Positions 1,772-58,216 of a stretch of 64,000 nt of DNA are shown here, piece after piece. The notes under the pieces were generated by a model. That model was not told the origin of the DNA and made no database searches. It saw only the letters and a program-made list of their open reading frames with translations. Source of the DNA: Alphaproteobacteria bacterium (GTDB lineage Bacteria; Pseudomonadota; Alphaproteobacteria; Rickettsiales; SXRF01); contig JABDCD010000001.1 of the NCBI GenBank assembly GCA_013288305.1, positions 4,923 through 68,922 of the forward strand, in the 5' to 3' direction. Every line of letters begins with the position of its first letter. The first letter of the stretch is position 1. Position numbers and translations under genes: made by a program.

Positions 1772-2710
1772 ATGCGTATCGCCCTCATCCAACTCACCAG
1801 CGGTGCAAACATCGCCGCCAATATTGCTAAAATCGAAACGCTGGTGAAACAGGCAGCGGGGCAGGGGGCCGAGCTTGTCGCGCTGCCGGAGAATGCATTC
1901 TACATGCGCGCTGAGGGGGAGGCTGCCGCACCGAAATATACGCAAGTTGAACATCCCGGCGTCGCCGCCGCGGCGCGGATGGCGAAGGAAAATCATATAT
2001 GGCTGTTGGCGGGAAGTGTGGCGGTAAAAAATGCTGAGTGCACAGGGCTGAGTGCAGAGGAAGAAAATAATCCGGGACTTAGCACTCAGCACTCAGCACT
2101 CACTTACAACCGCTCCATTCTCTTCAACCCCGAGGGTGAAATCGCCGCGCAGTACGATAAAATTCACCTCTTCGATGTCGATGTCGGCGACGGGCAGACC
2201 TACCGCGAATCGGCGAGGATATTGCCGGGGGAGAAGGCGGTGGTGGTAAGAATGGATGTGGAGAGATGGAGATGTGAAGATGTGGTAAAAAAAGAAAATT
2301 CTCTTTCTTCACATCCCCACATCCTCACATCCCCACATCCCGCCCTCGGCCTCACCATCTGCTACGACCTCCGCTTCCCGCAGCTATACCGCGCGCTGGC
2401 CAAGGCGGGGGCGCAGATTCTCGCCGTGCCGTCGGCGTTTACGGTAGTGACCGGCGAGGCGCACTGGCACGTGCTGCTGCGCGCACGCGCCATCGAGAAC
2501 GGCTGCTTCGTCATCGCCCCGGCGCAAACCGGTACGCACCCGGGCAACCGCAAAACCTACGGCCATTCGCTCATCGTCGACCCCTGGGGAAAAATCCTGG
2601 CCGACGGCGGGACGGAAGAGGGAGTGGTTATGGCTGAGATTGATCTGGATGAAGTAAAGCGCGTCCGAACGAAATTGCCCAGCCTGGAACATGATAGGGA
2701 GTTTGCTTGA
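1772..2710 (+). CDS. carbon-nitrogen hydrolase (Nit/nitrilase superfamily) carrying two in-frame repeat insertions
   Basis: [21 protein letters not shown] and [18 protein letters not shown] give the Glu-Lys-Cys CN-hydrolase signature. It is interrupted at 2033-2103 and 2254-2340. Confidence 0.88.
2033..2103. repeat. tandem-heptamer-arm hairpin, family B (GCTGAGT), in frame in the Nit hydrolase
   Basis: gctgagtgcacagggctgagtgcagagg / loop aagaaaataatcc / agcactcagcactcagcactcac. Confidence 0.85.
2254..2340. repeat. tandem-unit-arm hairpin, family A (GGATGTGG), in frame in the Nit hydrolase
   Basis: ggatgtggagagatggagatgtgaagatgtgg / loop taaaaaaagaaaatt / cacatccccacatcctcacatccccacatcc. Confidence 0.88.
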
Positions 2711-2770
2711 CAGAAGGTTAATATCTGCTAGCAATGTTGCCCCGCCTCTAAACTAACGACAGGAAAATTT

Positions 2771-3370
2771 ATGGCTCTCCCGCAACGTTACAATATCGAT
2801 TTTGGTCAATATAATCCCGTGAAAGAGACGCTGGGCGACCTTCTACTCGTTTTCAGAGAAATGTACGAGGTTATCGAAAATTGGGATGTTATGGAAGCGA
2901 ATGCAGTGAAACAGGAAGCAATAATGCGAGATTGTGGGGCAATGGAATTTAATCCACGTCCGGGGGAGAGCATCTCCATGTTGCGCAAGCTGCAAAGTGA
3001 CCTGGTCGGTCCCAGGCATATGGATAGGTTGCAGATCAAGGAATTAGCGGGGCGCTGGGAGTCATGCCTAGATAAACTGCTCGGATTTTATCAGGGTAGA
3101 GAAAACCGTCCGGGGGGATTTGCCAATGCACAAGAGGCTGCATCCCTGTTCGATTTCTTGTGGCTTCCCGGTTCAGGGGTGCCACGTCCTGAGGAATCGC
3201 CTTTGCACCGGTTACTTGATGTTGCCTGCGAGATTCGCAATCAACAAGTGGAGTTTGACAGGCACGGAGATTGGTCATGTTCGGGGAAAACTATACGCGA
3301 ATTGCTATATGCTATTCATACCGATATAGCAGCCGATATTCCGAAAGCTAAAAAAGAGGTCACTAGATAG
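2771..3370 (+). CDS. hypothetical protein (orphan, AT-shifted)
   Basis: 199-aa ORF with no motif I recognise. G+C is lower than in the neighbours. It converges on ubiG with an 8-nt overlap. Confidence 0.5.
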   Translation: MALPQRYNIDFGQYNPVKETLGDLLLVFREMYEVIENWDVMEANAVKQEAIMRDCGAMEFNPRPGESISMLRKLQSDLVGPRHMDRLQIKELAGRWESCLDKLLGFYQGRENRPGGFANAQEAASLFDFLWLPGSGVPRPEESPLHRLLDVACEIRNQQVEFDRHGDWSCSGKTIRELLYAIHTDIAADIPKAKKEVTR

Positions 3371-4223
3371 CTTTCCTCCCCGCCACCATATAATTCACCG
3401 CCAAATCCCCCGCATCCAGCCGCCATTCAAACGTCAGCGGATTCATCGCCATCCCGGTCATTTCCAGTATCTCGATATGATGATGGCGCAGATGGGCGCA
3501 GAGTTCCGACGGCCGCAGGAATTTATGCCAGTCATGCGTGCCGACGGGCAGCAAGCCGCACACATATTCCGCGCCGAGAATAGCCAGGGCGAAGGATTTC
3601 GCCGTGCGGTTGAGCGTGGAATAGATGATGAGTCCGCCCGGCTTCAGCAGCGCGCAGCTTGCCGCCACGAACGCCTCGACATCGGCGACATGCTCGATGA
3701 TTTCCAGCGCCAGCACGACGTCATATAGTGCTGAGTGCTGAGCGTTAAGTAGCGAGTTGTTTTTTTTCTCAGCACTCAGCATTGTGCACTCAGCACTTAA
3801 CTCCTCCACCGCCGCGCACCGATAATCAATCTCCAGCCCGCCCCGCTCGGCATGAAGCCTCGCCACCGCGATGTTTTTTTCCGAAGCGTCGATGGCGGTG
3901 ACGCGTGCGCCCAGCCGCGCCATCGGTTCGGCGATCAGCCCGCCGCCGCAGCCGATGTCTAAAAGGCGTAAGCCTTTTAGGGGATGTGGGGATGTGGGGA
4001 TGTGGGGATATGAGGATGAAGCCCTATCGTCTTTTTTCTCCACATCTCCACATCTCCACATCTCCACGTCGCGCTTCGATATCTGCTCCACTATCCACCC
4101 AATCCTTATCGGATTCATCCGATGCAGCGGCTTGAATTTGCCCTGCGGATTCCACCATTCCCCGGCGATGCGCGAGAAGCGCTCGATCTCGTCCTTATCG
4201 ACAGTGCTTGTGGCAGTAACCAT
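3363..4223 (-). CDS. ubiG: ubiquinone biosynthesis O-methyltransferase carrying two in-frame repeat insertions
   Basis: EIERFSRIAGEWWNPQGKFKPLHRMNPIR, the SAM motif LLDIGCGGGLIAEPMARLG, and LKPGGLIIYSTLNRT. Confidence 0.9.
   Translation of the reverse strand: MVTATSTVDKDEIERFSRIAGEWWNPQGKFKPLHRMNPIRIGWIVEQISKRDVEMWRCGDVEKKDDRASSSYPHIPTSPHPLKGLRLLDIGCGGGLIAEPMARLGARVTAIDASEKNIAVARLHAERGGLEIDYRCAAVEELSAECTMLSAEKKNNSLLNAQHSALYDVVLALEIIEHVADVEAFVAASCALLKPGGLIIYSTLNRTAKSFALAILGAEYVCGLLPVGTHDWHKFLRPSELCAHLRHHHIEILEMTGMAMNPLTFEWRLDAGDLAVNYMVAGRKAI
3727..3797. repeat. family B hairpin, in frame in ubiG
   Basis: agtgctgagtgctgagc ... T-run loop ... ctcagcactcagcattgtgcactcagcact. Confidence 0.85.
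3980..4067. repeat. family A hairpin, in frame in ubiG
   Basis: ggggatgtggggatgtggggatgtggggatatgagg ... ctccacatctccacatctccacatctccac. Confidence 0.88.
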
Positions 4224-4273
4224 AATGGTGCTATTGTCCTGCGCAATGATTTCTCAAAAAGGAACTATAACCT

Positions 4274-4660
4274 ATGCCCGGGCAAAAGCCGAATCTAAAA
4301 ACGATGCTGTGGGAACCCCTGGCGCAGGAGGCGTGGACGCTGGGCGATAAGCTGGTGCGCCGGGTATTCGGCGCAGCGGAAGGCTGGGAGAAGCGCCGCG
4401 ACATCGTGAAGAACAATTACGACCTCGGCGTGCGCTACCTCAAAGACGGCTATGTGGGCGATGCCATGTTCCGCTTCAAGCTCGTGACCTGGCTCGACCC
4501 CAGCCATGCCGAGGGCTGGTACGGCCTGGGCGCCGCGTATGTTGCCGGCGGCAAGCAGGCGGCGGCGGAAAAAGCGCTCAAAAAAACCCTGGAGATCAAA
4601 CCCGATTATCCGGAAGCGTCGCAACTGCTGGCAACCCTCGAAGGCAACGCTGCGCAATGA
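4274..4660 (+). CDS. tetratricopeptide-repeat protein
   Basis: TPR-like repeats: GDAMFRFKLVTWLDPSHAEGWYGLGAAYVAGGKQAAAEKALKKTLEIKPDYPEA. The start is uncertain; 4313 is an alternative. Confidence 0.65.
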   Translation: MPGQKPNLKTMLWEPLAQEAWTLGDKLVRRVFGAAEGWEKRRDIVKNNYDLGVRYLKDGYVGDAMFRFKLVTWLDPSHAEGWYGLGAAYVAGGKQAAAEKALKKTLEIKPDYPEASQLLATLEGNAAQ

Positions 4661-5109
4661 CGGAAATAACCCTCCGCCCCGCCACTGAATCCGAGGCGAA
4701 AATACTTACAGCGATACATCAAGAATGCTTTCCAACTTATTGGAGTATAAATTCATTTAATGATTTCTTCTCCGTGGACGGAACGCTGGCGCTGCTAGCT
4801 GAAAATCCCCATGCTGTCGGCATGATGGTCTACCGCCTCCACCATGAGCAGGCCGATATTATCACCATCGCCGTCCGCCCTGCCTGCCGCCGCCGCGGCA
4901 TCGCCCGTGCCCTGCTGGCGCAGGCCATGCAGACCATGGCCTCACGCGGCGTAAACGCCATCTTCCTCGACGTCGAGGACGGCAACGTCGCCGCGCTGCA
5001 ACTCTATGAAACGCATGGCTTTACCGTCATCAACCGCCGCAAGCACTATTATAAGCAAAAGGACGGAAGTTTCACGGATGCGCTTGTCATGACGCGGAAA
5101 TTAAGTTAG
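4657..5109 (+). CDS. rimI: ribosomal-protein-alanine N-acetyltransferase (GNAT)
   Basis: GNAT motif A, IAVRPACRRRGIARALL, and a RimI-like length. Its start overlaps the upstream stop (ATGA). Confidence 0.8.
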   Translation: MTEITLRPATESEAKILTAIHQECFPTYWSINSFNDFFSVDGTLALLAENPHAVGMMVYRLHHEQADIITIAVRPACRRRGIARALLAQAMQTMASRGVNAIFLDVEDGNVAALQLYETHGFTVINRRKHYYKQKDGSFTDALVMTRKLS

Positions 5110-5189
5110 TGGTCAGTGGCCGGTTGTCAGTGGCCAGTCAGACAGCCAGTTTCGCGCCCTTACTGACCACTGGTCACTGATCACTGGAC
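5110..5189. repeat. hairpin family C (GTCAGTGGCC), intergenic rimI|lysC
   Basis: tggtcagtggccggttgtcagtggccagtcag ... ctgaccactggtcactgatcactggac. It starts directly after the rimI stop. Confidence 0.8.
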
Positions 5190-5199
5190 ACTACAAATT

Positions 5200-6429
5200 A
5201 TGGCACTCATAGTTCAAAAATTCGGTGGCACCTCGGTGGCCGACATCGGGCGCATCAAAAACGCCGCGGCCAAGGTCAAAAAAGAACTCGACCTCGGCAA
5301 CCGGGTCGCCGTCGTCGTCTCGGCGATGGCGGGCGTGACCAACCAGTTGGTAAAATTTGTCGAGGAGCTGTCGCCGCTGACGACGGACGAAGCCTGGCGC
5401 GAATACGATCAGGTGGTATCGTCCGGCGAGCAGGTGACGAGCGGGCTTCTGGCGCTGGCCTTGCACGAGATGGGCATCCCGGCCTGGTCGTTCGCCGGCG
5501 GGCAGGTTCCGCTCAAGACCGACATCGTCCACGGCAAGGCACGCATCCACAGCATCGACGCCCAGGCGATCCATAAAGCGCTGGATAACGGCATGGTCGC
5601 CGTCGTCGCCGGGTTCCAGGGCATCACGCCCGACGGCCGCATGGCGACGCTGGGGCGCGGCGGCTCGGATACCTCGGCGGTGGCGTTGGCCGCGGCGCTC
5701 CATGCCGACCGCTGCGATATTTATACCGACGTCGACGGCGTCTACACCACCGACCCGCGCATCGTGCCGGGCGCGCGCAAGCTCGATAAAATCGCCTACG
5801 AGGAAATGCTGGAGATGGCCTCGCTCGGCGCCAAGGTATTGCAGACGCGCTCGGTCGAGATGGCGATGAACCACGGCGTGGTGGTGCAGGTATTGTCCAG
5901 CTTCGCCGACGCGCCGGGAACCTTATTGGTCAAGGAAGAGGAGTCTATGGAACAGCAAAAAATCACCGGCATCGCCTACAGCCGCGACGAAGCGCGCGTC
6001 ACCCTCACCGGCGTACCCGACAAGCCCGGCGTGGCGGCGGGCATTTTCGGGCCGCTGGCCGAAGCCAACATCAATGTCGATATGATCGTCCAAAACATCG
6101 ACGAGATCGGCCGCGTCACCGACATGACCTTCACCGTCGGCAAGGCCGATCTCGACCGCGCCATCGCCGCCCTCGAAAAAGCCCGCCCCGTGCTGCAATA
6201 TAAGGACCTCACCGCCGACAAAAACGTCGCCAAGATTTCGGTGGTCGGCGTCGGGATGCGCAGCCACGCCGGCGTGGCTTTAGACATGTTCAAAACGCTG
6301 GCGGAAAAAGGCATCAACATCCTGGTCATCTCGACCTCGGAAATCAAGATCAGCGTGCTGATTGCGGAGGAGTATACGGAGTTGGCCGTCCGCGCGCTGC
6401 ATCAGGCGTTTGGGCTGGAGAAGGCGTGA
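5200..6429 (+). CDS. lysC: aspartate kinase
   Basis: MALIVQKFGGTSV, GRGGSDTSAVALAAAL, DVDGVYTTDPRIV, and C-terminal ACT domains. Confidence 0.95.
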   Translation: MALIVQKFGGTSVADIGRIKNAAAKVKKELDLGNRVAVVVSAMAGVTNQLVKFVEELSPLTTDEAWREYDQVVSSGEQVTSGLLALALHEMGIPAWSFAGGQVPLKTDIVHGKARIHSIDAQAIHKALDNGMVAVVAGFQGITPDGRMATLGRGGSDTSAVALAAALHADRCDIYTDVDGVYTTDPRIVPGARKLDKIAYEEMLEMASLGAKVLQTRSVEMAMNHGVVVQVLSSFADAPGTLLVKEEESMEQQKITGIAYSRDEARVTLTGVPDKPGVAAGIFGPLAEANINVDMIVQNIDEIGRVTDMTFTVGKADLDRAIAALEKARPVLQYKDLTADKNVAKISVVGVGMRSHAGVALDMFKTLAEKGINILVISTSEIKISVLIAEEYTELAVRALHQAFGLEKA

Positions 6430-6435: not shown

Positions 6436-6912
6436 TTATCTCCCTTGATGTCTAAAGGGACTGGTTTTTTCCTGCCCGGTTGCCGCTCTAAGCAAAATAC
6501 CAAAACTCTGTATGGCATCAGGAGAAAGTTTTTCTGATAATTGATCGAGGATTTCTTGGGCTTTGTCCGAGCTTAGAAATTTTTTGTCCATTGTGGTATT
6601 GCGCGGAGGAGATTGTGCAGGCATTTTCAATGGATATAGTTTTTCTGACTTCAGAGCGTTCTGTATATTGAAGGACGAAAACAAGATGTCTGCTAATAGA
6701 GCGTGGATTTGATTATTGGCGGTATCCAAATTTTGCGTCAGTTTGCTGATGGTGGCAGCGAATTGCCTATAGCGTACCGCGGAGTCTTTACTTCCGCTGA
6801 GGAGGATTGGATTCTCCAAACTATGCAACAAATCATTTAAATTATAACGTCGAAGATTGTATTTTTTTCTCTTTTCATCTTCTGGGTCAACATCGGTTCT
6901 TGGGGTTGCCAT
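6436..6912 (-). CDS. hypothetical protein (orphan, AT-rich)
   Basis: 158-aa ORF in a clearly AT-rich stretch. No motif I recognise. Confidence 0.45.
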   Translation of the reverse strand: MATPRTDVDPEDEKRKKYNLRRYNLNDLLHSLENPILLSGSKDSAVRYRQFAATISKLTQNLDTANNQIHALLADILFSSFNIQNALKSEKLYPLKMPAQSPPRNTTMDKKFLSSDKAQEILDQLSEKLSPDAIQSFGILLRAATGQEKTSPFRHQGR

Positions 6913-9338: not shown

Positions 9339-9516
9339 AATATATGGCCTCCTTAATGTCCGATGAAATGTCTAACACCGTTAGTCATTAATATTTTGAT
9401 ATTAAACACAAATATATATTATATAATAAAAAATGTCCGCATCGATGTCCATATAATAGTCCAATACAATATTCAAAACAAGTAATGACATTGCATATGT
9501 ACTGAAAGCGCATTGA

Positions 9517-9525
9517 TGTTATAAT
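9517..9525 (+). promoter_or_regulatory. candidate extended -10 (TGTTATAAT) upstream of ptsP
   Basis: TGnTATAAT lies 6 nt before the GTG start. I saw no clear -35. Confidence 0.3.
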
Positions 9526-9531
9526 CTTTGC

Positions 9532-12366: not shown

Positions 12367-13617
<1,251 letters not shown>

Positions 13618-16010: not shown

Positions 16011-16011
16011 T

Positions 16012-16962
16012 ATGCAAAATACCCCTTTGCAATTCCCCTTTTTTTCTGCTAAAGACGCTTTGCGCGATGCGGTAAGGTCGCTCGCGCGGGCCCGGATTGA
16101 AACGGCGTCGCTGGATGCAAGGTTATTGCTCCAGCATGTTTTGAACATAAGCCATGAACGGTTGCTGGCCGATGAAAAGCTGGCATTGATGCCGTTTCAA
16201 GAAGCGGATTATCAGGAGTTGGTTAAAAAGCGCTGCCTTCGTAGGCCGGTCGCGCAACTTATCGGCAAGCGCGAGTTTTATGGCCGGACGTTCAAGGTGA
16301 CGGAAGATACGCTCGATCCGAGGCCGGATAGTGAAACGCTGATCGAGGCGGTGCTGGAATGGGTCAATGGTCATAGGTCACGGGTCATGGGAAAAGAAAA
16401 ATTACCCATGACCTATGACCCAAAACCCATGACTATTCTCGATCTAGGCACGGGAACCGGCTGTTTGCTGCTGACGTTGCTGAAGGAATATGAAAATGCC
16501 AAAGGAGTTGGCGTGGATATTAGCGAAGCGGCGCTGAATGTGGCGCAGGAAAATGCGGAAAGCTTGGATGTGCGGGAACGCGCGGAATTTGTGCATTCGC
16601 ATTGGGATCAAAACATAGAAGGAACATTCGATATTATCGTCGCCAACCCCCCTTATATTCCAACCAATGCCATCGCCGCGCTGGCGCCGGAAGTGGCGCA
16701 GTATGAACCGAAACTCGCGCTCGATGGCGGCGCGGACGGGCTGGAATGCTACCGCGCCATCCTGCCGCCATTGCCGCGATTGCTGGCTGCCGGCGGGTTT
16801 GCCGCCTTTGAGATCGGGCAGGGGCAGGAAGAAGACGTAAAAGAATTAGTTGCTAGTTGCCAGTTGCGGGTTGCTGGCATCAAGAAAGATTTAGGAAATA
16901 TTTCTAGATGCATATTGGTACGGAAATCAGGCAATAACCAGCAACTGGCAACTAGCAACTAG
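16012..16962 (+). CDS. prmC: release-factor glutamine N5-methyltransferase (HemK) carrying repeat-derived segments
   Basis: SAM motif ILDLGTGTGCLLL and catalytic IVANPPYI. It starts 1 nt after the prfA stop. Confidence 0.9.
   Translation: MQNTPLQFPFFSAKDALRDAVRSLARARIETASLDARLLLQHVLNISHERLLADEKLALMPFQEADYQELVKKRCLRRPVAQLIGKREFYGRTFKVTEDTLDPRPDSETLIEAVLEWVNGHRSRVMGKEKLPMTYDPKPMTILDLGTGTGCLLLTLLKEYENAKGVGVDISEAALNVAQENAESLDVRERAEFVHSHWDQNIEGTFDIIVANPPYIPTNAIAALAPEVAQYEPKLALDGGADGLECYRAILPPLPRLLAAGGFAAFEIGQGQEEDVKELVASCQLRVAGIKKDLGNISRCILVRKSGNNQQLATSN
16361..16433. repeat. tandem-heptamer-arm hairpin, family D (GTCATGG), in frame in prmC
   Basis: gggtcaatggtcataggtcacgggtcatggg / loop aaaagaaaaatta / cccatgacctatgacccaaaacccatgac. 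Confidence 0.87.
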
Positions 16963-16973
16963 CAACTAGCAAC
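16849..16973. repeat. heptamer-arm inverted repeat, family F (GCYAGTT), spanning the prmC 3' end
   Basis: gttgctagttgccagttgcgggttgctggc ... ccagcaactggcaactagcaactagcaactagcaac. The arms are about 50 bp apart, and the stop codon lies inside the right arm. Confidence 0.8.
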
Positions 16974-16991
16974 AAAACGGAGTTAACATTC

Positions 16992-34175: not shown

Positions 34176-34241
34176 TAGGTTCTAGGTGCTAGAGGCTAGG
34201 TTCTAGTTTTAACTAGCACCTAGAACCTAGCCCCTAGCACC
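34176..34241. repeat. tandem-heptamer-arm hairpin, family G (TAGGTTC), rpsQ|rplN
   Basis: taggttctaggtgctagaggctaggttctag tttt aactagcacctagaacctagcccctagcacc. Confidence 0.88.
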
Positions 34242-34264
34242 TTAATGAAAAAACAGAGGAATTT

Positions 34265-34633
34265 ATGATACAGCAACAAACCAATCTCGAAGTCGCCGAC
34301 AATTCCGGTGCGCGGCGTGTGATGTGCATCAAGGTATTGGGCGGTTCGCAGCGGCGGTACGGCTCGGTCGGCGACGTCATCGTCGTCTCGATCAAGGACG
34401 CCATTCCGCGCGGCAAGGTCAAAAAAGGCGAGGTGCACAAGGCCGTCATCGTGCGCACGCGCCGCGATATCCGCCGTCCCGACGGCAGCACGATCCGTTT
34501 CGACAAGAACGCAGCGGTGCTGCTCACGGCGCAAAACGAGCCGATCGGCACGCGCATCTTCGGACCCGTAACGCGCGAACTGCGCGCCAAGCAGTTCATG
34601 AAGATCGTGTCGCTGGCGCCGGAGGTATTATGA
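34265..34633 (+). CDS. rplN: 50S ribosomal protein L14
   Basis: [28 protein letters not shown]. Confidence 0.98.
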
Positions 34634-34690
34634 GGTTCTAGGGACTGGGTTCTAGGTTCTAGTAGCACCTAGCCCCTAGAACCTAGCACC
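34634..34690. repeat. family G hairpin, rplN|rplX
   Basis: ggttctagggactgggttctaggttctag tagcacctagcccctagaacctagcacc. Confidence 0.88.
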
Positions 34691-34712
34691 TAAATTTATA
34701 AGGAATGAGAAA

Positions 34713-39257: not shown

Positions 39258-39722
39258 ATGCAACTCAACGAACTCAAATCCAATCCCGGCTCGCACCATC
39301 GCAAGATGCGCGTGGGTCGCGGCATCGGCAGCGGCAAGGGCAAAACCTGCGGCCGCGGCGGCAAAGGACAAACCGCGCGCACCGGCGTGCGCATCAACGG
39401 CTTCGAGGGCGGCCAGACGCCGATCCATCGCCGCCTGCCCAAGCGCGGCTTCAACAACCCGACGCGCAAGGAAATCGCCACCGTCAATCTCGGCGCCATC
39501 GAAAAAGCCATCACCGCAGGCAAACTCGACGCCAAGAAGGACATCAACCTGGACGCGCTGAAAGCCGCCGGATTGCTGCGCAAAAATGCTTCGGAAGTCA
39601 AACTGCTGGCCAAGGGCGAACTGAAAGCTAAGATTTCGCTGCACGTCAATTTTGCGTCTGAAGGCGCGAAGGCTGCGGTGGAGAAGGCGGGTGGCAGTGT
39701 CGTCATGAGTCATGGGTCATGA
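39258..39722 (+). CDS. rplO: 50S ribosomal protein L15 (last codons lie in a repeat arm)
   Basis: [21 protein letters not shown]. Confidence 0.97.
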
Positions 39723-39785
39723 GTCATGGGGTTCAAGCGATTCACTCATGACCAATGACCAAAAACCCATGACCCACTTATGACC
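39702..39785. repeat. family D hairpin spanning the rplO 3' end and the secY start codon
   Basis: gtcatgagtcatgggtcatgagtcatgggg ... ctcatgaccaatgaccaaaaacccatgacccacttatgacc. Confidence 0.88.
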
Positions 39786-41840: not shown

Positions 41841-41915
41841 GGGATTGGGGATTAGGGATTAGGGATTGGAAAATAATGATTTTTTCCCAATCCCCAATCC
41901 CCAATCCCCATCCCC
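41841..41915. repeat. tandem-heptamer-arm hairpin, family H (GGGATTR), adk|rpsM
   Basis: gggattggggattagggattagggattgg / aaaataatgatttttt / cccaatccccaatccccaatccccatcccc. Confidence 0.9.
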
Positions 41916-42312: not shown

Positions 42313-42404
42313 GGATGTGGGGATGTGGAAGGATGTGGAGATGTGGGGAATAAGAAAGATTTTTTCTTTCTCCACATCCCCACATCTCCATCTCCCCACA
42401 TCCC
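42313..42404. repeat. family A hairpin, rpsM|rpsK
   Basis: ggatgtggggatgtggaaggatgtggagatgtgggg / aataagaaagattttttctttc / tccacatccccacatctccatctccccacatccc. Confidence 0.9.
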
Positions 42405-42853: not shown

Positions 42854-42919
42854 GTACCCGGTACACGGTACTCGGTACCCGGTGAAGATTTTGAGTACCG
42901 TGTACTGAGTACCATGTAC
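42854..42919. repeat. tandem-heptamer-arm hairpin, family I (GGTACNC), rpsK|rpoA
   Basis: gtacccggtacacggtactcggtacccggtg / aagattttga / gtaccgtgtactgagtaccatgtac. Confidence 0.88.
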
Positions 42920-44013: not shown

Positions 44014-44032
44014 TTGAACTAGGAGAAATAAA

Positions 44033-44656: not shown

Positions 44657-45052
44657 TTGCCTATGAATTTCCTCCCCCTCATGTACGTCGCCATCGGCGG
44701 GGCGTTCGGCTCAATGTGCCGCTATGTGGTCGGCGTCTGGGTCGGCGTGGTCAACCCCACCGGCTTTCCCTTCGGGACGCTCGTCATCAATGTCAGCGGC
44801 TCGTTCCTGATGGGGGTGTGGATCGGCGTCATGGTGCTGGTGCTGCCGGAAAAATCGAAGGACATGCACCTGCTGATGGCCATCGGCGTGCTCGGCGGCT
44901 ATACAACCTTTTCCACCTTCTCGCTCGAATCCTACCTGCTCATCGAAAAAGGCCTGTGGCTGCAGGCGGCGGCCTATATCTTCGGTTCGGTCATCGTCTC
45001 CATCGCCGCTTTGTTCGCCGGCATGTGGCTGATGCGTTCGCTCAATGGATAA
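44657..45052 (+). CDS. crcB: fluoride ion channel CrcB/FluC
   Basis: AIGGAFGSMCRY...FPFGTLVINVSGSFLMG...GGYTTFSTFS. Confidence 0.9.
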   Translation: MPMNFLPLMYVAIGGAFGSMCRYVVGVWVGVVNPTGFPFGTLVINVSGSFLMGVWIGVMVLVLPEKSKDMHLLMAIGVLGGYTTFSTFSLESYLLIEKGLWLQAAAYIFGSVIVSIAALFAGMWLMRSLNG

Positions 45053-46034
45053 AATTATTATCACTGAAGCCGACGGCGGCATCCGCCTCGACCGCTGGTT
45101 CAAGCGCCATTATCCCGGACTGCAACATGCGTGGCTCGAAAAAAACCTGCGCAAGGGATTGATTCGCGTGGGCGGCAAAAAAGCGAAATCGTCAGACCGG
45201 GTAGAAATAGGGCAGGTGGTAGATATCAAATGCCCGATGCCGGATGTCACAAAAAATTCCCCGAATCCTGAATCCCGAATCCTGAATCCTGATGACATCC
45301 GCATGATCCAAAATGCCGTCCTCTATAAAGACGCCAACCTCATCGTCCTGGGCAAGCCATACGGCCTGGCGGTGCAGGGCGGCAGCAAAATCGTCAAAAG
45401 CATCGACGGAATGCTCGACGCCCTGCGCGACGGCGGCAAGGAACGCCCCAAGCTCGTCCACCGCCTCGACCGCGACACCAGCGGCTGCCTGGTGCTGGCG
45501 CGCAGTGCCAAAGTCGCCACGGCCATCATGCATCTTTTTTCCTCCCGCCGCGTCGAAAAAACTTATTGGGCGCTGGTCAATAACGCGCCGCTGCCGCCGG
45601 AGGGCGTCATCAACCTGCCGCTCTTAAAAAAAGAAAATCCCAAAGCCAGCGGACGTGCTGGCGGCCCCGAAGGAAGGGACTACGAAATCGTGCAGGTCAA
45701 CGAGGAAGGCCAGAAAGCGACCACCGAATACCGCGTCATCGACCAGCTCGCGCGCAAATTCGCGCTGGTCGAGATGAAGCCGCTCACCGGCCGTATGCAC
45801 CAGCTGCGCGTCCATATGTCGGCCATCGGCTGCCCCATCGTCGGCGATCACAAATATGGCGGCGGCACCGAAGACGCCCGTTCGCTGGGCGTCGAAAACA
45901 TCCTGCATCTTCATGCGCGGCGCATCGTCATCCCGGCCTTGCCTGGCGGCAAGAAAGTCGATGTCCTGGCACCGCTGCCCGACCATATGCGGCGCAGTTT
46001 CAAAGCACTGGGGCTGGACGTTCCGAAGAAATGA
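45045..46034 (+). CDS. RluA-family 23S rRNA pseudouridine synthase (S4 domain + catalytic domain) with an in-frame repeat insertion
   Basis: Catalytic HRLDRDTSGCLVLAR and GRMHQLRVHM. The insertion at 45242-45300 lies between the S4 and catalytic domains. Confidence 0.88.
   Translation: MDKIIITEADGGIRLDRWFKRHYPGLQHAWLEKNLRKGLIRVGGKKAKSSDRVEIGQVVDIKCPMPDVTKNSPNPESRILNPDDIRMIQNAVLYKDANLIVLGKPYGLAVQGGSKIVKSIDGMLDALRDGGKERPKLVHRLDRDTSGCLVLARSAKVATAIMHLFSSRRVEKTYWALVNNAPLPPEGVINLPLLKKENPKASGRAGGPEGRDYEIVQVNEEGQKATTEYRVIDQLARKFALVEMKPLTGRMHQLRVHMSAIGCPIVGDHKYGGGTEDARSLGVENILHLHARRIVIPALPGGKKVDVLAPLPDHMRRSFKALGLDVPKK
45242..45300. repeat. GAATCCY x4 tandem heptamer flanked by the inverted repeat ggatgtcac/gtgacatcc-like, in frame in the pseudouridine synthase gene
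   Basis: ggatgtcacaaaaaattccccgaatcctgaatcccgaatcctgaatcctgatgacatcc. Confidence 0.75.
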
Positions 46035-53767: not shown

Positions 53768-54205
53768 ATGTCAAGAAAATTGAGAACAAAACAGATAAAA
53801 GCGGCACGGCTGGTATTGGAAAATTACTCCGCTAATGGCATCGCGCGTGAACTTAAAATACGCCCGGAAACACTATCGCGTTGGAAAAAACTTCCCGCTT
53901 TTAAGAAAATAATAGAACAGGTTACGCAAAGTGAACTGGAGGAGGCGCGTTGTCAATTTGTGCATCTGGTCGATGCTTCGTTAGCGGCATTATGGTCGGT
54001 TGTCAAAGGGAGGCATTGCGATCCGGTTCGCCTCAAAGCCGCTTTAAGCGTGCTCAAACTGGCCGGAATCGAGCGCATTTCGGTGCCCAACGTGTCCGAA
54101 ACGGTGGATAACGCGCCCAAACAGGAGCAAAACGCGCCCGCAAGCGCGGCACCTAATGAAACGCCCGGCCAAACTCCTCCCGCAGCATCCTGTCGAATGT
54201 TGTGA
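53768..54205 (+). CDS. hypothetical protein with an N-terminal HTH-like segment
   Basis: [21 protein letters not shown] resembles a helix-turn-helix. The C-terminus is low-complexity and overlaps the lipB 3' end by about 50 nt. Confidence 0.45.
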
Positions 54206-54893
54206 GCGAAACATCGGCGCCCAGCGCCTTAAGCGACGTCACGCCCGCGTCGGCAATGCCGCAGGGGACGATGCCGCCGTAATGCGACAGGTCAGGATGG
54301 ACGTTGACCGAAATGCCATGATACGCCACCCATTTGCGCACGCGGATGCCGATGGCGGCGATTTTGGCTTCCCCAAAATCAGGTATCGGGTATCGGGCAT
54401 CGGGTATCAGTATTTTTTTTTCTGATTCCTGATTCCCGATTCCTGATTCCCGATTTACCCAAACGCCCACCCGCCCCTCGTGCGTAAACCCTTCCACGCC
54501 GAAGCGGGCAAGCGTGGCGATAATCCATTGCTCCAGCGTATGTACGTACGTACGTACGTCGCGCCCGCGCCGGTTGAGATCGAGCATGGCGTAGGCGACG
54601 CGCTGGCCGGGGCCGTGATAGGTGAATTGCCCGCCGCGGCCTGAGGGGTAAACCGGAAAGCGGGCATCGAGCAGGTCGGCGGCATTGGCGCTGGTGCCCG
54701 CCGTGTAGAGCGGCGGATGCTCCAGCAGCCACACCATCTCCGCCGCCCGCCCGGCCAGAATATCCTCGACCCGCCGCTCCATCGTTTCGACGGCAGCGGG
54801 GTAATCGACCGGCGCGGTGGATATTTTCCATTCCAATCCCCCCTCCCCTTGAGGGAGGGGGTTAGAGGGAGGGGACTTTGTTATTATATTCAT
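54153..54893 (-). CDS. lipB: octanoyltransferase LipB carrying repeat-derived insertions
   Basis: [23 protein letters not shown], and [17 protein letters not shown]. Start set at ATG 54893; TTG 54836 is an alternative. The track start 55004 would overlap the tRNA. Confidence 0.88.
54379..54453. repeat. tandem-heptamer-arm hairpin, family J (GGTATCG / GGAATCR), in frame in lipB
   Basis: tcaggtatcgggtatcgggcatcgggtatcag / T-run loop / ctgattcctgattcccgattcctgattcccga. The arms are only partly complementary. Confidence 0.75.
54838..54876. repeat. family E module (CCCCTCCCC hairpin) in the lipB 5' region
   Basis: cccccctccccttgagggagggggttagagggaggggac. Confidence 0.75.
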
Positions 54894-54976
54894 AGAAAGG
54901 AGATTTTTGTAACGCTTGCCAAAAGACGCATATTGGCCTACATAACTCGCTCTTGTCAATAAAGCCCAACGGATAT

Positions 54977-55061
54977 GCGGCCGTGGCGGAATTGGTAGAC
55001 GCACTACCTTGAGGTGGTAGCGCCGCGAGGCGTGGAAGTTCGAGTCTTCTCGGCCGCACCA
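54977..55061 (+). tRNA. tRNA-Leu (anticodon GAG), CCA encoded
   Basis: I folded the cloverleaf by hand. Acceptor GCGGCCG/CGGCCGC, anticodon stem CTACC/GGTAG with loop TTGAGGT, a long variable arm, and T-arm GGAAG TTCGAGT CTTCT. Confidence 0.9.
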
Positions 55062-56768: not shown

Positions 56769-56795
56769 AGTTTACCTCAGGTTGTTCAACGCAAA

Positions 56796-58142
56796 TCAGG
56801 AAGTTCCCTCCGCCTGGCGCTCAAGCGCCGCTGCGAAAAAACCATCCACCCCGTCTTGGTGCGGGTTTAGCCACAGGTACGAAACCTCATCCGTTTTATC
56901 CGTGGCGCTTGTCTTATCCCATATTTTTTTAGCGCAGACAACCCTGAAATTATTTCCGCTTTTTAAGAACTCCGTGATTTGTTTTTCATTTTCATTTTTC
57001 AAAATCGAGCACGTCGCGTAAATCAACCGCCCACCGGGCTTCACCAGCCGCGACGCGCTTTGCAGAATGGATTGCTGCAGCGCCAGCACCTCCTCCAAAT
57101 CTTTTTTTGTGAAGCGCCATTTTAAATCCGGATTGCGCCGCCACGTGCCCGTTCCGCTGCACGGCGCATCGACCAGTACGCGGTCGGCGCTGGCTTTGTG
57201 GCGCTTGATGAACGCGTCATGCTCGGAGGTGAGCACATGCGTCTGCACGTTATCGACGCCCGCGCGCCGGAGCCGCTGCACGATCTGCTCCAGCCGTTTT
57301 TCCGAATTATCCCAGGCCAGGATGCGCCCTTTATTTTGCATCGCCGCCGCCATCGCCAGCGTCTTGCCGCCTGCACCCGCGCAAAAATCGATGACTTTCA
57401 TTCCCGGCTTCGCATCGACCAGCAGCGCCACCATCTGCGAGCCTTCGTCCTGCACTTCGAAATGTCCCTGCTTGAACGGCGCCGAGGTAAAAATCGGTCC
57501 CCGCTTGGAAAGCCGCAGGCCGATGGGCGACAGTGCCGTCGGCACTGCCTCGAAACCTTCCTTGTGCAGATCGCTCTGTAATTGCTCGCGCGTCGTCTTC
57601 AACGTGTTGACGCGCAGGTCGGTCGGCGCCTGCTCATTCAGCGCGAGCAACGCTTTGTCAAAATCATCGCCCAGGCTCTGGCGCAACATGGGTTCCATCC
57701 ACTCGGGATAATTGAGTCGAATATGCGAAGGCATATTCGACTCATCCCCGCGAAGGGGGGGATCTCGTGCAGCAAGCTCCTCGCAGCGCTTCATCTCCAT
57801 CGGCGTCAATCTAGGCAGGGAATATTTACTGTCCTGCGTAATCGCATCCAACGCGCTCACCGTATAATCCCTGCGCAGCATCAAAGCAGTCAAGACGATG
57901 GCGCGCGCATGAACGGGCGATTTCAGTTTTTCCTTGAGCCACCATTCCAGCGATGCTTTGTGTCGTAAGCACCAATACACCAACTCCCCTACATACGCCC
58001 GATCCTTCGAGCCGATATAGCGATGCGATTTGAAATGCTGCTCAAGCAGCTTATCGGCGGGAAAGCGTTTTTCCGACTGCCATGCGATGAAAATCTGTTC
58101 GAGCAACTCGATGGCCGATTGAACGCGGGAGCCGGGGGTCAT
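56796..58142 (-). CDS. rsmB: 16S rRNA (cytosine-C5)-methyltransferase RsmB/Sun family
   Basis: VIDFCAGAGGKT, DRVLVDAPCSGTGTWRRNPD and ATCS. Start chosen at MTPGSRV, downstream of the repeat at 58148-58216. Confidence 0.88.
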   Translation of the reverse strand: MTPGSRVQSAIELLEQIFIAWQSEKRFPADKLLEQHFKSHRYIGSKDRAYVGELVYWCLRHKASLEWWLKEKLKSPVHARAIVLTALMLRRDYTVSALDAITQDSKYSLPRLTPMEMKRCEELAARDPPLRGDESNMPSHIRLNYPEWMEPMLRQSLGDDFDKALLALNEQAPTDLRVNTLKTTREQLQSDLHKEGFEAVPTALSPIGLRLSKRGPIFTSAPFKQGHFEVQDEGSQMVALLVDAKPGMKVIDFCAGAGGKTLAMAAAMQNKGRILAWDNSEKRLEQIVQRLRRAGVDNVQTHVLTSEHDAFIKRHKASADRVLVDAPCSGTGTWRRNPDLKWRFTKKDLEEVLALQQSILQSASRLVKPGGRLIYATCSILKNENEKQITEFLKSGNNFRVVCAKKIWDKTSATDKTDEVSYLWLNPHQDGVDGFFAAALERQAEGTS

Positions 58143-58147
58143 GAGGA

Positions 58148-58216
58148 GTGCCTTGTGCTTAGTGCTTTGTGCCTTGTAAGAAAATAACGAATTACTAGCC
58201 ACAAGGCACGAGGCAC
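58148..58216. repeat. tandem-heptamer-arm hairpin, family K (GTGCYTT), guaB|rsmB
   Basis: gtgccttgtgcttagtgctttgtgccttgt / aagaaaataacgaattactag / ccacaaggcacgaggcac. Confidence 0.85.

What the first reader, a model, noticed from the sequence alone, without database searches (positions are those of the whole stretch)
2033..58216. A class of hairpin elements whose arms are tandem 7-8 bp units: many sequence families, one architecture
At least 15 loci share one design. The left arm has 3-5 degenerate tandem units, the loop is short and A/T-rich, and the right arm is the reverse-complement units.

The unit sequence differs by family:
- GGATGTGG at 2254, 3980 and 42313
- GCTGAGT at 2033 and 3727
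- GTCATGR at 16361 and 39702
- TAGGTTC at 34176 and 34634
- GGGATTR at 41841
- GGTACNC at 42854
- GTGCYTT at 58148
- GCYAGTT at 16849
- GGTATCG/GGAATCR at 54379
- GTCAGTGGCC at 5110

Loops from families with unrelated arms share an AAGAAAAT-like core:
- 2291 aaagaaaatt
- 2061 aagaaaataa
- 16393 aaaagaaaaatt
- 41868 ggaaaataatga
- 58178 aagaaaataacg

A conserved loop and architecture with family-specific arms is not what simple duplication of one MITE would give. It suggests a common generating or mobilising mechanism that recognises structure or periodicity rather than sequence. I saw no transposase or REP-associated (RAYT-like) gene in this window.
Basis: seen in the sequence. Interest (0 to 1): 0.85.

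Follow-up and report, generated by a model that had tools for sequence, protein, structure and literature searches.

The report
Heptamer-armed hairpin elements inside genes
An uncultured alphaproteobacterium carries about fifteen small hairpin insertions per 64 kb, some translated in frame inside housekeeping genes, and in related bacteria the same hairpin design encloses a small four-helix-bundle gene also known from ribosomal RNA intervening sequences.

Summary
Fifteen hairpins with arms made of 3-5 tandem 7-8 nt units lie at the stated coordinates, against none in 20 simulated windows. Seven sit inside genes for conserved enzymes, in frame and without stops. Eight sit between genes, six of them in the ribosomal-protein operon.

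The shared loop motif is only partly real: 5 of 15 loops match it.

The design is not new in itself. Cyanobacterial heptamer repeats (STRR, Nostoc trnL intron P6b), Xanthomonas GGGAATC inverted arrays and the Coxiella 23S rRNA intervening sequence all show it.

What I add:
- In 18 of 24 cases examined across four phyla, a TIGR02436/PF05635 four-helix-bundle gene (S23p, related to Avd) lies between such inverted arrays.
- Three unit families in the window match the arms of S23p cassettes in other bacteria.
- GCTGAGT hairpins align in register with both cassette ends.

My best reading is that these are ORF-less members of an S23p/intervening-sequence-type palindromic cassette. They persist where in-frame translation or an RNA hairpin is tolerated, and their arms change in concert. 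How they move, and whether S23p is involved, is not shown.

The parts
2033..2102 (+). e1. GCTGAGT-family hairpin (arms 2033-2060 and 2077-2102, loop AAGAAAATAATCCGGG). In frame inside the C-N hydrolase (Nit) ORF 1772-2710, where it encodes [24 protein letters not shown].
   Evidence: Absent at this site in L082, L163 and L001. Present in L165 and L083.
2254..2341 (+). e2. GGATGTGG-family (8-mer) hairpin, in frame in the same Nit ORF. Encodes [30 protein letters not shown].
   Evidence: The same protein site holds AGATGAGA (L082), GGGGATGT (L163) and GCAGATA (L167) arms, and is empty in 8 other relatives.
3727..3797 (-). e3. GCTGAGT-family hairpin, in frame in the UbiG-like methyltransferase ORF 3363-4223 (minus strand). 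A near copy of e1, including the irregular unit GCACA.
   Evidence: Only the window has an element at this site; 11 relatives are empty there.
3980..4067 (-). e4. GGATGTGG-family hairpin, in frame in the UbiG-like ORF.
   Evidence: The L082 ortholog has the same family with compensatory changes on both arms.
5108..5192 (+). e5. AGTGGYC-family hairpin between the GNAT acetyltransferase gene (4657-5109) and the aspartokinase gene (5200-6429).
   Evidence: Same unit as the arms of the S23p cassette in L188.
16359..16433 (+). e6. GTCATGG-family hairpin, in frame inside the PrmC ORF 15970-16962, between the N-terminal and methyltransferase domains. Loop GGGAAAAGAAAAATT.
16846..16976 (+). e7. GCYAGTT-family hairpin with a 58-nt loop. 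It supplies the C-terminal tail and the stop codon (16962) of PrmC.
34176..34242 (.). e8. TAGGTKC-family hairpin upstream of rplN (L14).
34633..34692 (.). e9. TAGGTTC-family hairpin without a loop, between rplN and rplX.
39702..39776 (.). e10. GTCATGR-family hairpin between rplO and secY. The stop codon of rplO lies in the left arm.
41841..41915 (.). e11. GGGATTR-family hairpin between adk and rpsM.
42313..42404 (.). e12. GGATGTGG-family hairpin between rpsM and rpsK.
42854..42919 (.). e13. GGTACNC-family hairpin between rpsK and rpoA.
   Evidence: Same unit (GGTACTC/GAGTACC) as the arms of the S23p cassette in L005.
54378..54455 (-). e14. GGTATCG / GGAATCR hairpin, in frame inside the LipB ORF 54153-55004 (minus strand). 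The loop is A-rich on the coding strand.
58148..58216 (+). e15. GTGCYTT-family hairpin between guaB and rsmB, both on the minus strand. The A-rich loop is on the + strand, making this the only copy opposed to host transcription.
45260..45292 (+). Single-arm tandem heptamer array (GAATCCT x4.3, complement GGATTCA), in frame in the pseudouridine synthase ORF 45045-46034. It has no inverted partner.
   Evidence: The same unit forms single arms in L167 and L008 and full hairpins in L163.

Best explanation
The hairpins are ORF-less members of a widespread class of small palindromic cassettes. The full-length form carries a roughly 120-aa four-helix-bundle gene between two inverted arrays of tandem 7-8 nt units. 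That gene belongs to TIGR02436/PF05635 (S23p, the '23S rRNA intervening-sequence protein'), a relative of Avd, the cofactor of diversity-generating retroelements. When such a cassette sits in 23S rRNA it is called an intervening sequence. The bare arrays are what cyanobacterial work calls STRR heptamers.

**Shown**
- The shared architecture.
- The S23p association.
- Matching unit families between the window and S23p cassettes.
- In-register alignment of ORF-less GCTGAGT copies with both cassette ends.
- Presence and absence between related genomes.
- In-frame, stop-free persistence inside genes.
- Compensatory change on the two arms.

**Inferred**
- ORF-less copies arise from cassettes by internal deletion and disperse as whole units.
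- Within genes, only copies that keep the frame, avoid stops, put the A-rich loop on the sense strand (Lys/Glu/Asn codons) and land in surface loops survive. These are translated as disordered inserts of 20-30 residues, as with Rickettsia palindromic elements.
- Between operon genes they act as RNA hairpins. By analogy with intervening sequences they may be RNase III substrates.
- Arms gain and lose units by slippage. They stay complementary through templated correction within the hairpin or through selection. At a given site one family can be replaced by another.

**Speculative**
- The pentameric S23p ring binds the repeated units or the hairpin and promotes spread, possibly together with a reverse transcriptase, as Avd does.
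For: 1. **Reality.** 15 elements in 64 kb against 0 in 20 simulations. My detector made no period-7/8 calls in the 79 more distant metagenome loci (about 808 kb of the 824 kb scanned) and only a few in the 1.3 Mb of GTDB loci, but 1-5 per 13-21 kb in most syntenic relatives: L082, L163, L165, L167, L083, L001, L189. L190 had none.
2. **S23p inside the same architecture.**
   - L165 14562-14945 has GCTGAGT arms. L005 has GGTACTC arms. Nostoc pNPUN01 has TCAGGAG arms.
   - 18 plasmid-borne homologs from Nostocales, Pseudanabaena, Stanieria, Picosynechococcus, Geminocystis, Leptolyngbya, Azospirillum, Riemerella and Gemmatirosa were examined, plus L188-L190.
   - Result: 18 of 24 with inverted tandem 7/8-mer arrays, 2 with arrays in direct orientation, 3 one-sided, 1 with none.
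   - Control: among 42 genes on Nostoc pNPUN01, only the S23p gene and its immediate neighbour score.
3. **Family matches.** Window e1/e3 match the arms of the S23p clade P0121-P0136 (N-termini 'LSAE...'). e13 matches L005. e5 matches L188/P0142.
4. **In-register alignment.** Six ORF-less GCTGAGT elements align with both ends of three S23p cassettes, including the irregular second unit.
5. **Dispersal and polymorphism.** e3 is a near copy of e1 and is present only in the window, with 11 relatives empty at that site. Nit site 1 is filled in the window, L165 and L083 and empty in the others.
6. **Translation tolerated.** ORFs run through 7 elements. The AlphaFold model has a confident core (128 residues with pLDDT of 90 or more) and pLDDT 46-55 across the inserts. 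The loop has A > T on the sense strand in 7 of 7 intragenic copies.
7. **Concerted arm evolution.** At UbiG site 1, the window and L082 arms are 77-79% identical to each other but 86-97% complementary within each hairpin.
8. **Published parallels.**
   - The Coxiella 23S intervening sequence has GACAGAT x2-3 upstream of S23p and is excised by RNase III (PMC4990558).
   - The Nostoc trnL P6b stem is built of 7-nt repeats, with repeated replacement of one class by the other at the same site (PMC4476775).
   - Xanthomonas has 70-75 convergent GGGAATC array pairs (PMC4692102).
Against: - No S23p gene or remnant is in the 64-kb window. I could not examine the rest of this genome.
- The window holds at least 10 unit families. 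If each needs a cognate S23p, that implies many paralogs.
- No target-site duplication or clean insertion junction was seen. Filled sites look like replacement of 6-7 codons.
- At two protein sites, different lineages carry different families. In-situ turnover explains this as well as re-insertion does.
- Single-arm arrays (window 45260, L167, L008) and direct-orientation arrays around S23p (L173, L179) show that arrays can exist without hairpins.
- The S23p leader matches the AAGAAAAT motif in only about 5 of 21 cassettes.
- The direction of derivation is not settled: an ORF lost from a cassette, or an ORF captured by a hairpin.
- Nothing shows that S23p acts on these repeats. In Coxiella, S23p is probably not even expressed (PMC4990558).
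Confidence: 0.6

Rival explanations
1. **Local origin without mobility.** Heptamer microsatellites arise by polymerase slippage. They become palindromic through template switching at quasi-palindromes, so each locus is home-grown and S23p genes are bystanders.
For: - Unit number varies between strains and orthologs (Coxiella 2 against 3 units, PMC4990558; Xanthomonas, PMC4692102).
- Single-arm arrays exist.
- Orthologous sites carry related units differing by one base or one indel: GGAGATGT, AGATGAGA, GGGGATGT, GCAGATA.
- The L008 array replaces a loop with no change in length.
- Heptamers are the commonest long simple repeats in bacteria, and slippage was proposed as the cause (Mrazek 2007, as cited in PMC4679880).
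Against: - e1 and e3 share the same irregular unit and loop start at unrelated loci.
- The same families recur in different genes, genomes and phyla.
- There is a strong and specific association with one gene family: 18 of 24 against 1 of 41 other genes on the control plasmid, that one being the S23p gene's immediate neighbour.
- The G-rich arm comes first in 14 of 15 elements.
Confidence: 0.2
2. **Host-selected structural elements.** The hairpins are RNA processing or stability hairpins, attenuators, or G-quadruplex/cruciform DNA signals, kept at each site for a regulatory function.
For: - Six copies lie in spacers of the ribosomal-protein operon, and others lie between co-transcribed genes.
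- Folds are very stable, from -30 to -64 kcal/mol.
- Pairing is maintained by compensatory change.
- Intervening-sequence stems are RNase III sites (PMC4990558).
- G-rich heptamers can form quadruplexes (PMC4692102).
Against: - Seven copies are inside coding regions of unrelated enzymes, where a regulatory hairpin is not expected.
- Most relatives lack an element at any given site.
- Unit sequence is free to change.
- No U-tract follows the stems.
- On the sense RNA the fold is usually weaker than on the antisense strand.
Confidence: 0.12
3. **Conventional hairpin-dependent elements.** These are REP/BIME elements mobilised by a RAYT, IS200/IS605-derived palindromes, or MITEs of a transposase-bearing IS.
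For: They are small, palindromic, dispersed and non-coding. The genome does carry a separate REP-like family, ATCCTGYG...CRCAGGAT.
Against: - No RAYT, IS200 or other transposase gene was found in the window ORFs I scanned with Pfam, and none appears among the genes called, with precomputed Pfam hits, on the relatives' contigs fetched by exact protein look-up.
- Arms are tandem arrays with no conserved terminal motif.
- No target-site duplication is visible.
- Orientation follows the host gene even for oppositely oriented neighbouring genes 2 kb apart, not the direction of replication.
Confidence: 0.05
4. **Assembly or sequencing artefact.**
For: Repeats and hairpins can be mis-assembled, and L082 is a nanopore-based assembly.
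Against: - A second assembly record is identical.
- The elements preserve reading frames.
- Orthologous copies occur in contigs from many samples and platforms.
- The same architecture occurs in finished plasmids of cultured strains.
Confidence: 0.01

Closest known systems
23S rRNA intervening sequences carrying an S23p ORF (Coxiella burnetii, Leptospira, Xanthomonas, Brucella; PMC4990558)
   Same: - A long stem made from inverted repeats.
- Tandem heptamers (GACAGAT x2-3, variable between strains) next to the S23p start.
- A TIGR02436/PF05635 four-helix-bundle ORF in the loop.
- Regarded as a selfish, horizontally transferred insertion into a host transcript.
- Relatives of this window's organism carry the same cassette outside rRNA.
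   Different: - The window's copies have no ORF.
- They lie in protein-coding genes and operon spacers, not in rRNA helix 25 or 45.
- The intragenic ones must be translated rather than excised.
- RNase III processing is untested here.
Cyanobacterial tandem heptamer repeats: STRR of Calothrix/Anabaena, and the Nostoc trnL(UAA) intron P6b stem-loop of Class I/II 7-nt repeats (PMC4476775)
   Same: - Arms built of degenerate 7-nt units that pair with their complement.
- Very different unit sequences give one structure.
- Repeated replacement of one repeat class by another at the same site.
- Unit-number indels on both sides of the stem.
- I found three such hairpins in 50 kb of Nostoc pNPUN01 with the same detector.
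   Different: - A different phylum.
- Those repeats are described as intergenic or intronic, not as in-frame inserts in enzymes.
- None of the papers I could read links them to a gene.
Xanthomonas GGGAATC and Nostoc GGGGAYT heptamer arrays (Rehm et al. 2015, PMC4692102)
   Same: - G-rich heptamer arrays.
- 70-75 pairs per genome in convergent (inverted) orientation, able to form stem-loops.
- Positions conserved between species while lengths vary.
- Units GGGAATC and GGGGATT also occur here (e14, e11).
   Different: - Interpreted there as G-quadruplex motifs of a single family.
- Here there are many families, most of them not G4-prone, and some copies lie inside genes.
Rickettsia palindromic elements (RPE; Ogata et al. 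2000, from my own knowledge, not read here)
   Same: Small palindromic repeats inserted in frame into conserved protein-coding genes of an alphaproteobacterium. They are translated as extra surface segments, and no transposase is known.
   Different: As I recall them, RPEs are 100-150 bp families defined by sequence, without tandem-unit arms and with no associated S23p gene. Sequence similarity was not tested.
REP/BIME elements with RAYT, and MITEs
   Same: Short, dispersed, hairpin-forming and non-autonomous.
   Different: - No RAYT or parent IS.
- No conserved terminal tetranucleotide.
- No visible target-site duplication.
- Arms are tandem arrays.

Membership tests
S23p / intervening-sequence-type palindromic cassette | Stem formed by inverted repeats containing tandem heptamers | tested here: met
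   15 window elements. Cassettes in L165, L005, L188-L190 and 13 plasmid or Nostoc loci. Coxiella description in PMC4990558.
S23p / intervening-sequence-type palindromic cassette | TIGR02436/PF05635 four-helix-bundle ORF in the loop | tested here: not met
   hmmsearch of all six-frame ORFs and tblastn found no S23p or remnant in the window. It is met in relatives. The window's copies can therefore only be ORF-less derivatives.
S23p / intervening-sequence-type palindromic cassette | Sequence continuity between ORF-less copies and cassette ends | tested here: met
   For the GCTGAGT family, an in-register MAFFT alignment of 6 ORF-less elements with both ends of 3 cassettes. For the AGTGGYC and GGTACTC families, only the unit match was shown.
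S23p / intervening-sequence-type palindromic cassette | Insertion in 23S rRNA helix 25/45 and excision by RNase III | not testable with these tools
   The window has no rRNA gene, and no RNA data are available.
STRR-type tandem heptamer repeats | Tandem 7-nt units, several families per genome, often as inverted pairs | tested here: met
   TRF and the detector on the window. The same detector on Nostoc pNPUN01.
STRR-type tandem heptamer repeats | Host is a (heterocystous) cyanobacterium; location intergenic | tested here: not met
   The closest genomes are uncultured 'Rickettsiales/Alphaproteobacteria bacterium' MAGs. 7 of 15 copies are intragenic.
Rickettsia palindromic elements (RPE) | In-frame insertion of a palindromic repeat into conserved protein genes | tested here: met
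   Nit, UbiG-like, PrmC and LipB ORFs read through the elements. Ortholog alignments show them as insertions. Inserts have low pLDDT.
Rickettsia palindromic elements (RPE) | Sequence similarity to an RPE family consensus | not tested
Rfam has no match to the hairpins.
REP / RAYT | Associated RAYT (IS200-like Y1 transposase) gene and a conserved terminal tetranucleotide | tested here: not met
   No such Pfam hit among the window ORFs I scanned, nor among the genes called, with precomputed Pfam hits, on the relatives' contigs fetched by exact protein look-up. Arm ends differ by family. The rest of the genome was not seen.
MITE | Terminal inverted repeats matching a transposase-bearing IS, plus a target-site duplication | tested here: inconclusive
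   Comparisons of filled and empty sites show replacement of 6-7 codons with no recognisable duplication. The compared genomes are only 60-70% identical in protein, which is too diverged to see junctions.

The most novel reading that the evidence does not exclude
Tandem-heptamer hairpins form one cross-phylum class of mobile element. The class would include cyanobacterial STRR, Xanthomonas GGGAATC pairs, short and long 23S rRNA intervening sequences, and these in-frame inserts. Its dedicated protein would be the TIGR02436 four-helix-bundle pentamer (S23p). Each S23p lineage would recognise its own repeated unit, as a ring protein binding tandem repeats does, and drive copying or insertion, perhaps through a reverse-transcriptase partner as its homolog Avd does. 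That would give a function to a very large orphan protein family. It would also explain why that family appears 'CRISPR-associated': the cassettes insert between cas genes.
Probability: 0.3. Interest if true: 0.85.

Novelty: new variant of a known kind. Interest (0 to 1): 0.7.

Why it matters
Three puzzles have been treated separately since about 1990, and each is still called unexplained in the papers I could read:
- the origin of cyanobacterial and Xanthomonas heptamer repeats;
- the origin of 23S rRNA intervening sequences;
- the function of the abundant 'four helix bundle protein' family.

This window and its relatives put all three into one architecture. They also supply matched pairs, ORF-bearing and ORF-less, of the same unit family in the same lineage. 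That makes the question testable.
- Computationally, by a census of TIGR02436 flanks and of family matching within genomes.
- At the bench, by S23p binding to its own arrays and by a mobilisation assay.

The window also shows a second bacterial lineage, besides Rickettsia, in which palindromic DNA has been written into the surface loops of core enzymes.

Tried and rejected
**Interpretations considered and rejected**
- Eukaryotic-style or spliced introns. GTAAGA-like starts first caught my eye, but ORFs read straight through in frame and the gene order is bacterial.
- IS200/IS605-type strand bias. Orientation follows the host gene even for neighbouring genes on opposite strands.
- 'G-rich arm first' as an orientation marker. 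It is symmetric between strands for a hairpin, so only the loop gives an orientation.

**Searches that found nothing**
- Rfam: no family matches the hairpins.
- Phage carriage: two family patterns gave 0 hits in 2.9 million viral contigs.
- Window 6436-6912 and 2771-3370: no family in Pfam or NCBIfam.

**Data I could not get**
- Exact-protein look-ups to extend the contig beyond the window failed.
- The GTDB representative set does not contain this genome. The best Nit match there is 59%.
- The metagenome scan gave only two insert-bearing relatives.

**Method and literature**
- My first tandem-array detector was too strict, finding 9 of 15, and was replaced.
- Several literature searches were unproductive.
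- Elhai et al. 2008 on small dispersed repeats in Nostoc could not be retrieved. I could not check whether it already links heptamer hairpins to a gene.

**Weak result**
- The S23p leader as the source of the AAGAAAAT motif: about 5 of 21 cassettes match.

Full report
**1. What is in the window**

The 64-kb window is bacterial, 57% G+C, with dense genes.
- It includes the S10-spc-alpha ribosomal-protein operon: L16, L14, L24, L15, SecY, Adk, S13, S11, RpoA.
- It also has the block Nit, UbiG-like methyltransferase, GNAT, aspartokinase, NMO, PtsP, IspG.
- The nearest database relatives of its C-N hydrolase are metagenome-assembled genomes labelled 'Rickettsiales bacterium' or 'Alphaproteobacteria bacterium'.
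- The genome itself is not among the GTDB representatives. The best match there is 59%.

**2.

- A detector asking for a stem of at least 16 bp and for the same 5-11 nt periodicity in both arms finds 13 of them. It finds none in 20 Markov-simulated windows.
- The two GCTGAGT elements escape it only because one irregular unit gives a 14-nt period.
- Predicted folds are -25 to -64 kcal/mol.
- Units are 7 nt in eleven elements and 8 nt in the three GGATGTGG copies. The '10-mer' at 5110 is a 7-mer.
- A second assembly record (Logan, SRR8432341) is 100% identical over 11.7 kb containing five elements.

**3. Seven copies are inside genes and in frame**

| Element(s) | Host ORF |
|---|---|
| e1, e2 | C-N hydrolase (Nit), 1772-2710 |
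| e3, e4 | UbiG-like methyltransferase, 3363-4223, minus strand |
| e6, e7 | PrmC |
| e14 | LipB |

- None of these breaks the frame or introduces a stop.
- The same family gives the same peptide in different proteins:
  - [29 protein letters not shown] and DVEMWRCGDVEKKDDRASSSYPHIPTSPHP;
  - [18 protein letters not shown] and LSAEKKNNSLLNAQHSAL.
- An alignment of 28 Nit homologs shows two insertion hot spots where orthologs have no insert, the same family, or a different family or class.
- An AlphaFold model has a confident core and pLDDT 46-55 over the inserts, consistent with exposed and disordered loops.
- In all seven intragenic copies the loop has more A than T on the sense strand, so it encodes Lys/Glu/Asn.
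- The remaining eight copies lie between genes, six of them in the ribosomal-protein operon.

**4. The loop motif is only partly real**

- AAGAAAAT with at most one mismatch occurs in 5 of 15 loops, against 0.95 after shuffling each loop (P = 0.0004). In four of them it lies on the host-sense strand. In e15 it lies on the + strand, opposite to the flanking genes.
- Five loops have nothing like it.
- Part of the shared-word excess is just runs of A.

**5. Relatives**

Syntenic contigs from other samples carry the same kind of element, and often at the same protein positions.

| Site | Filled | Empty |
|---|---|---|
| Nit site 1 | GCTGAGT in window, L165, L083. The window and L083 copies align codon by codon, including the loop GAAGAAAATAAT, although the proteins are only 61% identical. 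| L082, L163, L001 and others |
| Nit site 2 | GGAGATGT (window), AGATGAGA (L082), GGGGATGT (L163), GCAGATA (L167) | Eight relatives |
| UbiG site 1 | GGATGTGR (window, L082), GCTGAGT (L165), GCAGTTC (L167), single-arm GGATTCA array (L008) | L083, L002, L003, L004 (L001 is 8 residues longer there, with no recognisable array) |
| UbiG site 2 | Window only (e3) | All 11 relatives |

- e3 is a near copy of e1, down to the irregular unit GCACA that removes an in-frame TGA. This points to copying of whole elements, not to independent slippage.
- At UbiG site 1 the window and L082 arms are 77-79% identical to each other. Each hairpin is 86-97% self-complementary, and L082 has 29 perfect base pairs. 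Changes on one arm are therefore mirrored on the other.
- Outside this clade the architecture is rare. My detector made no period-7/8 calls in the 79 more distant metagenome loci, about 808 kb of the 824 kb scanned, and a handful, mostly G+C-rich false positives, in 1.3 Mb of GTDB loci.

**6. The associated gene**

In L165 a 127-aa gene lies between aspartokinase and NMO.
- It carries Pfam PF05635 (23S_rRNA_IVP) and PF22296 (bAvd), and matches NCBIfam TIGR02436, 'four helix bundle protein', at E = 1e-38.
- It is flanked on the left by GAGTGCTGCGTGCTGAGTGCGGAGTGCAGAGT and on the right by TTCAGCACTCAGCACTCAGCACGCAGCAC. So it sits in the loop of a GCTGAGT hairpin.

The other homologs in my loci behave the same way.
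- L005 has GGTACTC/GAGTACC arms, the unit of window e13.
- Nostoc punctiforme pNPUN01 has TCAGGAG arms.
- tblastn against PLSDB found 36 plasmids with a homolog. I fetched 18 and later three more metagenomic cassettes.

Counting each S23p gene, the L165/L166 duplicate once:

| Flank pattern | Cassettes (of 24) |
|---|---|
| Inverted tandem 7- or 8-mer arrays abutting the gene | 18 |
| Arrays on both sides in direct orientation | 2 |
| Array on one side only | 3 |
| None | 1 |

- The hosts span Nostocales, Pseudanabaena, Stanieria, Picosynechococcus, Geminocystis, Leptolyngbya, Azospirillum, Riemerella, Gemmatirosa and the alphaproteobacterial MAGs.
- The units all differ: TAGGGAG, AGGTGAC, GGGAACA, TAGGGTG, GGGAAAA, GGAGATAA, GGACGGA, GGAGATGG, AAGGTTC and others.
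- As a control, among 42 genes in 50 kb of pNPUN01 only the S23p gene and its immediate neighbour have such flanks.
- The cassettes sit between operon genes: nrdB|nrdA, cas6|cas4, cas10|cmr3.

**7. Link between ORF-less hairpins and cassettes**

- The S23p clade P0121-P0136 (70-99% identical) always begins 'M(L/Q)SAE...'. That is, the left arm is GCTGAGT and is read into the protein.
- P0142 begins VSGQWPVVSGQ, encoded by AGTGGCC/AGTGGTC units. This is the family of window e5 (tblastn E = 0.01; DNA).
- A MAFFT alignment places six ORF-less GCTGAGT elements in register with the left and right ends of three cassettes. The elements are window e1 and e3, L083, and three from L165. The cassettes are L189, L190 and L165.
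- Following the left arm, the ORF-less copies read LSAE-KENNK / -EEENN / -KKNN. The cassettes read LSAE-YKENK-IESF, which is the start of S23p.
- In L165 all four elements on a 21-kb stretch, three ORF-less and one with the gene, are of this one family.
- No S23p gene or remnant is present in the window itself. At the lysC|NMO position, where L165, L189 and L190 carry the cassette, the window has an unrelated 158-aa ORF.

**8. What was already known**

- Warrier et al. 2016 (PMC4990558) describe the Coxiella 23S rRNA intervening sequence.
  - It is a selfish hairpin excised by RNase III.
  - It has two or three tandem GACAGAT heptamers, varying between strains, just upstream of its S23p ORF.
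  - They quote the old idea that the ORF might serve mobility, and note that S23p is a toroidal homopentamer of four-helix bundles.
- S23p/PF05635 is homologous to Avd, the cofactor of diversity-generating retroelements (PMC10053308).
- Kaasalainen et al. 2015 (PMC4476775) show that the P6b stem-loop of the Nostoc trnL intron is built from 7-nt repeats of two classes.
  - The class has been replaced repeatedly at the same site while the structure stays.
  - The origin of the repeats is unknown.
- Rehm et al. 2015 (PMC4692102) report about 186 GGGAATC arrays in Xanthomonas.
  - 70-75 pairs are in convergent orientation, able to form stem-loops.
  - Nostoc 7120 has GGGGAYT arrays.
  - They state that no function is known.
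- MacGregor 2015 (PMC4679880) reports TAACTGA heptamers in Beggiatoaceae, cyanobacteria and Bacteroidetes, and cites the polymerase-slippage idea.
- None of these papers connects the arrays to TIGR02436 genes in general.
- I could not retrieve Elhai et al. 2008, the paper most likely to overlap.

**9. Explanation**

I conclude, with confidence about 0.6, that the window's hairpins are ORF-less members of this S23p/intervening-sequence-type cassette class.

Shown:
- the architecture;
- the gene association;
- the family matches;
- the in-register alignment;
- presence and absence between genomes;
- in-frame persistence inside genes;
- compensatory arm change.

Inferred:
- derivation by loss of the ORF;
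- dispersal as whole units;
- purifying filters inside genes (frame, no stops, hydrophilic loop, surface site);
- an RNA-hairpin role between genes;
- slippage plus intra-hairpin templating as the source of concerted arm evolution and family turnover.

Speculative: that the S23p pentamer binds the repeated units and promotes spread.

The main rival, confidence about 0.2, is purely local birth by slippage and palindromisation. It explains unit-number variation, single-arm arrays and site-specific turnover. It does not explain the near-identical irregular copies at unrelated loci or the gene association.

**10. Other observations**

- On most elements the RNA fold is more stable on the strand antisense to the host gene.
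  - e2: -39 sense, -52 antisense.
  - e4: -41 sense, -64 antisense.
  - The mismatches are A·C on the sense strand and G·U on the other.
  - This could reflect selection against long perfect duplexes in mRNA, or simply A-enrichment of coding strands. I did not resolve it.
- The G-rich arm is 5' of the C-rich arm in 14 of 15 elements, and in almost all S23p cassettes.

**11. Verdict**

- The finding is a real, non-random and lineage-enriched class.
- Its design is a new variant of something already described in pieces.
It now has a concrete candidate gene, though that gene's role is unproven.

Noticed in passing
window 18994-19076, 24706-24838, 26927-26952, 28982-29037, 31940-32014, 32412-32490, 35043-35164, 36321-36373, 36818-36846, 37429-37518, 43954-44014: A second, unrelated palindromic family, often in pairs: ATCCTGYGAGCCG...GGCTGCRCAGGAT followed by ATCCTGCGCA...GCAGGAT. 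It fills many spacers of the ribosomal-protein operon and looks like REP/BIME. No RAYT gene is in the window.
   Followed up: no
window 7223-7320 (inside NMO ORF 7011-8135); also 54840-54861: A G/C-rich palindrome (CCCCTCCCCC...GGGGGAGGGG) lies in frame inside the NMO gene and splits its Pfam match in two. Nit homologs P0016 and P0100 carry what looks like the same class as peptide inserts ('FPSPLAGEGG...'). L165 has two copies.
   Followed up: partly
window 13550-13604, 21690-21784, 44516-44624: A third palindromic family, TGTCATYCC...GGRATGACA. Peptides of the type 'VIPSEAEGS / VIPNEVRD' occupy Nit site 1 in other MAGs (P0006, P0010, P0026, P0034).
   Followed up: no
L170, L173, L174, L181 (cyanobacterial plasmids): S23p cassettes are inserted between nrdB and nrdA, cas6 and cas4, and cas10 and cmr3. 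Insertion of a small mobile cassette into cas operons could account for the 'CRISPR association' of 23S rRNA IVP listed in PMC10910872.
   Followed up: partly
L173 (Pseudanabaena galeata pPg_01) and L179 (Gemmatirosa plasmid): Here S23p is flanked by heptamer arrays in direct, not inverted, orientation: AAAAGCT x14 upstream with AAAAGCC x9 downstream, and CTCCTGC on both sides. The hairpin is therefore not obligatory.
   Followed up: no
L008 UbiG region; L167 Nit site 1; window 45260-45292: Single-arm GGATTCA arrays lie inside coding loops. In L008, four units replace the loop sequence and the region has exactly the same length (37 codons) as in relatives without the array. A simple insertion does not explain that.
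   Followed up: partly
window elements e2, e4, e6, e8, e10, e11, e14: The predicted RNA hairpin is 5-22 kcal/mol more stable on the strand antisense to the host gene than on the mRNA strand (A·C mismatches on the sense strand, G·U on the antisense).
   Followed up: partly
window 1326-1356 and 1382-1407 (inside ORF6N-domain gene 1119-1763): Two near-identical perfect palindromes 26-31 bp long (CTTGATATCGCAAATTGCGATATCAAG and CTTGAGGTCGCAAATTGCGACCTCAAG) lie 25 bp apart inside a coding region.
   Followed up: no
window 8000-10000: A low-G+C island (44.5% against about 57%) holds a Fic-domain gene (8118-9338, minus strand) and an AT-rich palindromic spacer at 9325-9457.
   Followed up: no
window 54537-54559 and 54977-55058: A (CGTA)x5.8 microsatellite lies inside the LipB ORF. 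A tRNA gene overlaps the 5' end of the longest LipB ORF, so the true LipB start is probably downstream of 55004.
   Followed up: no
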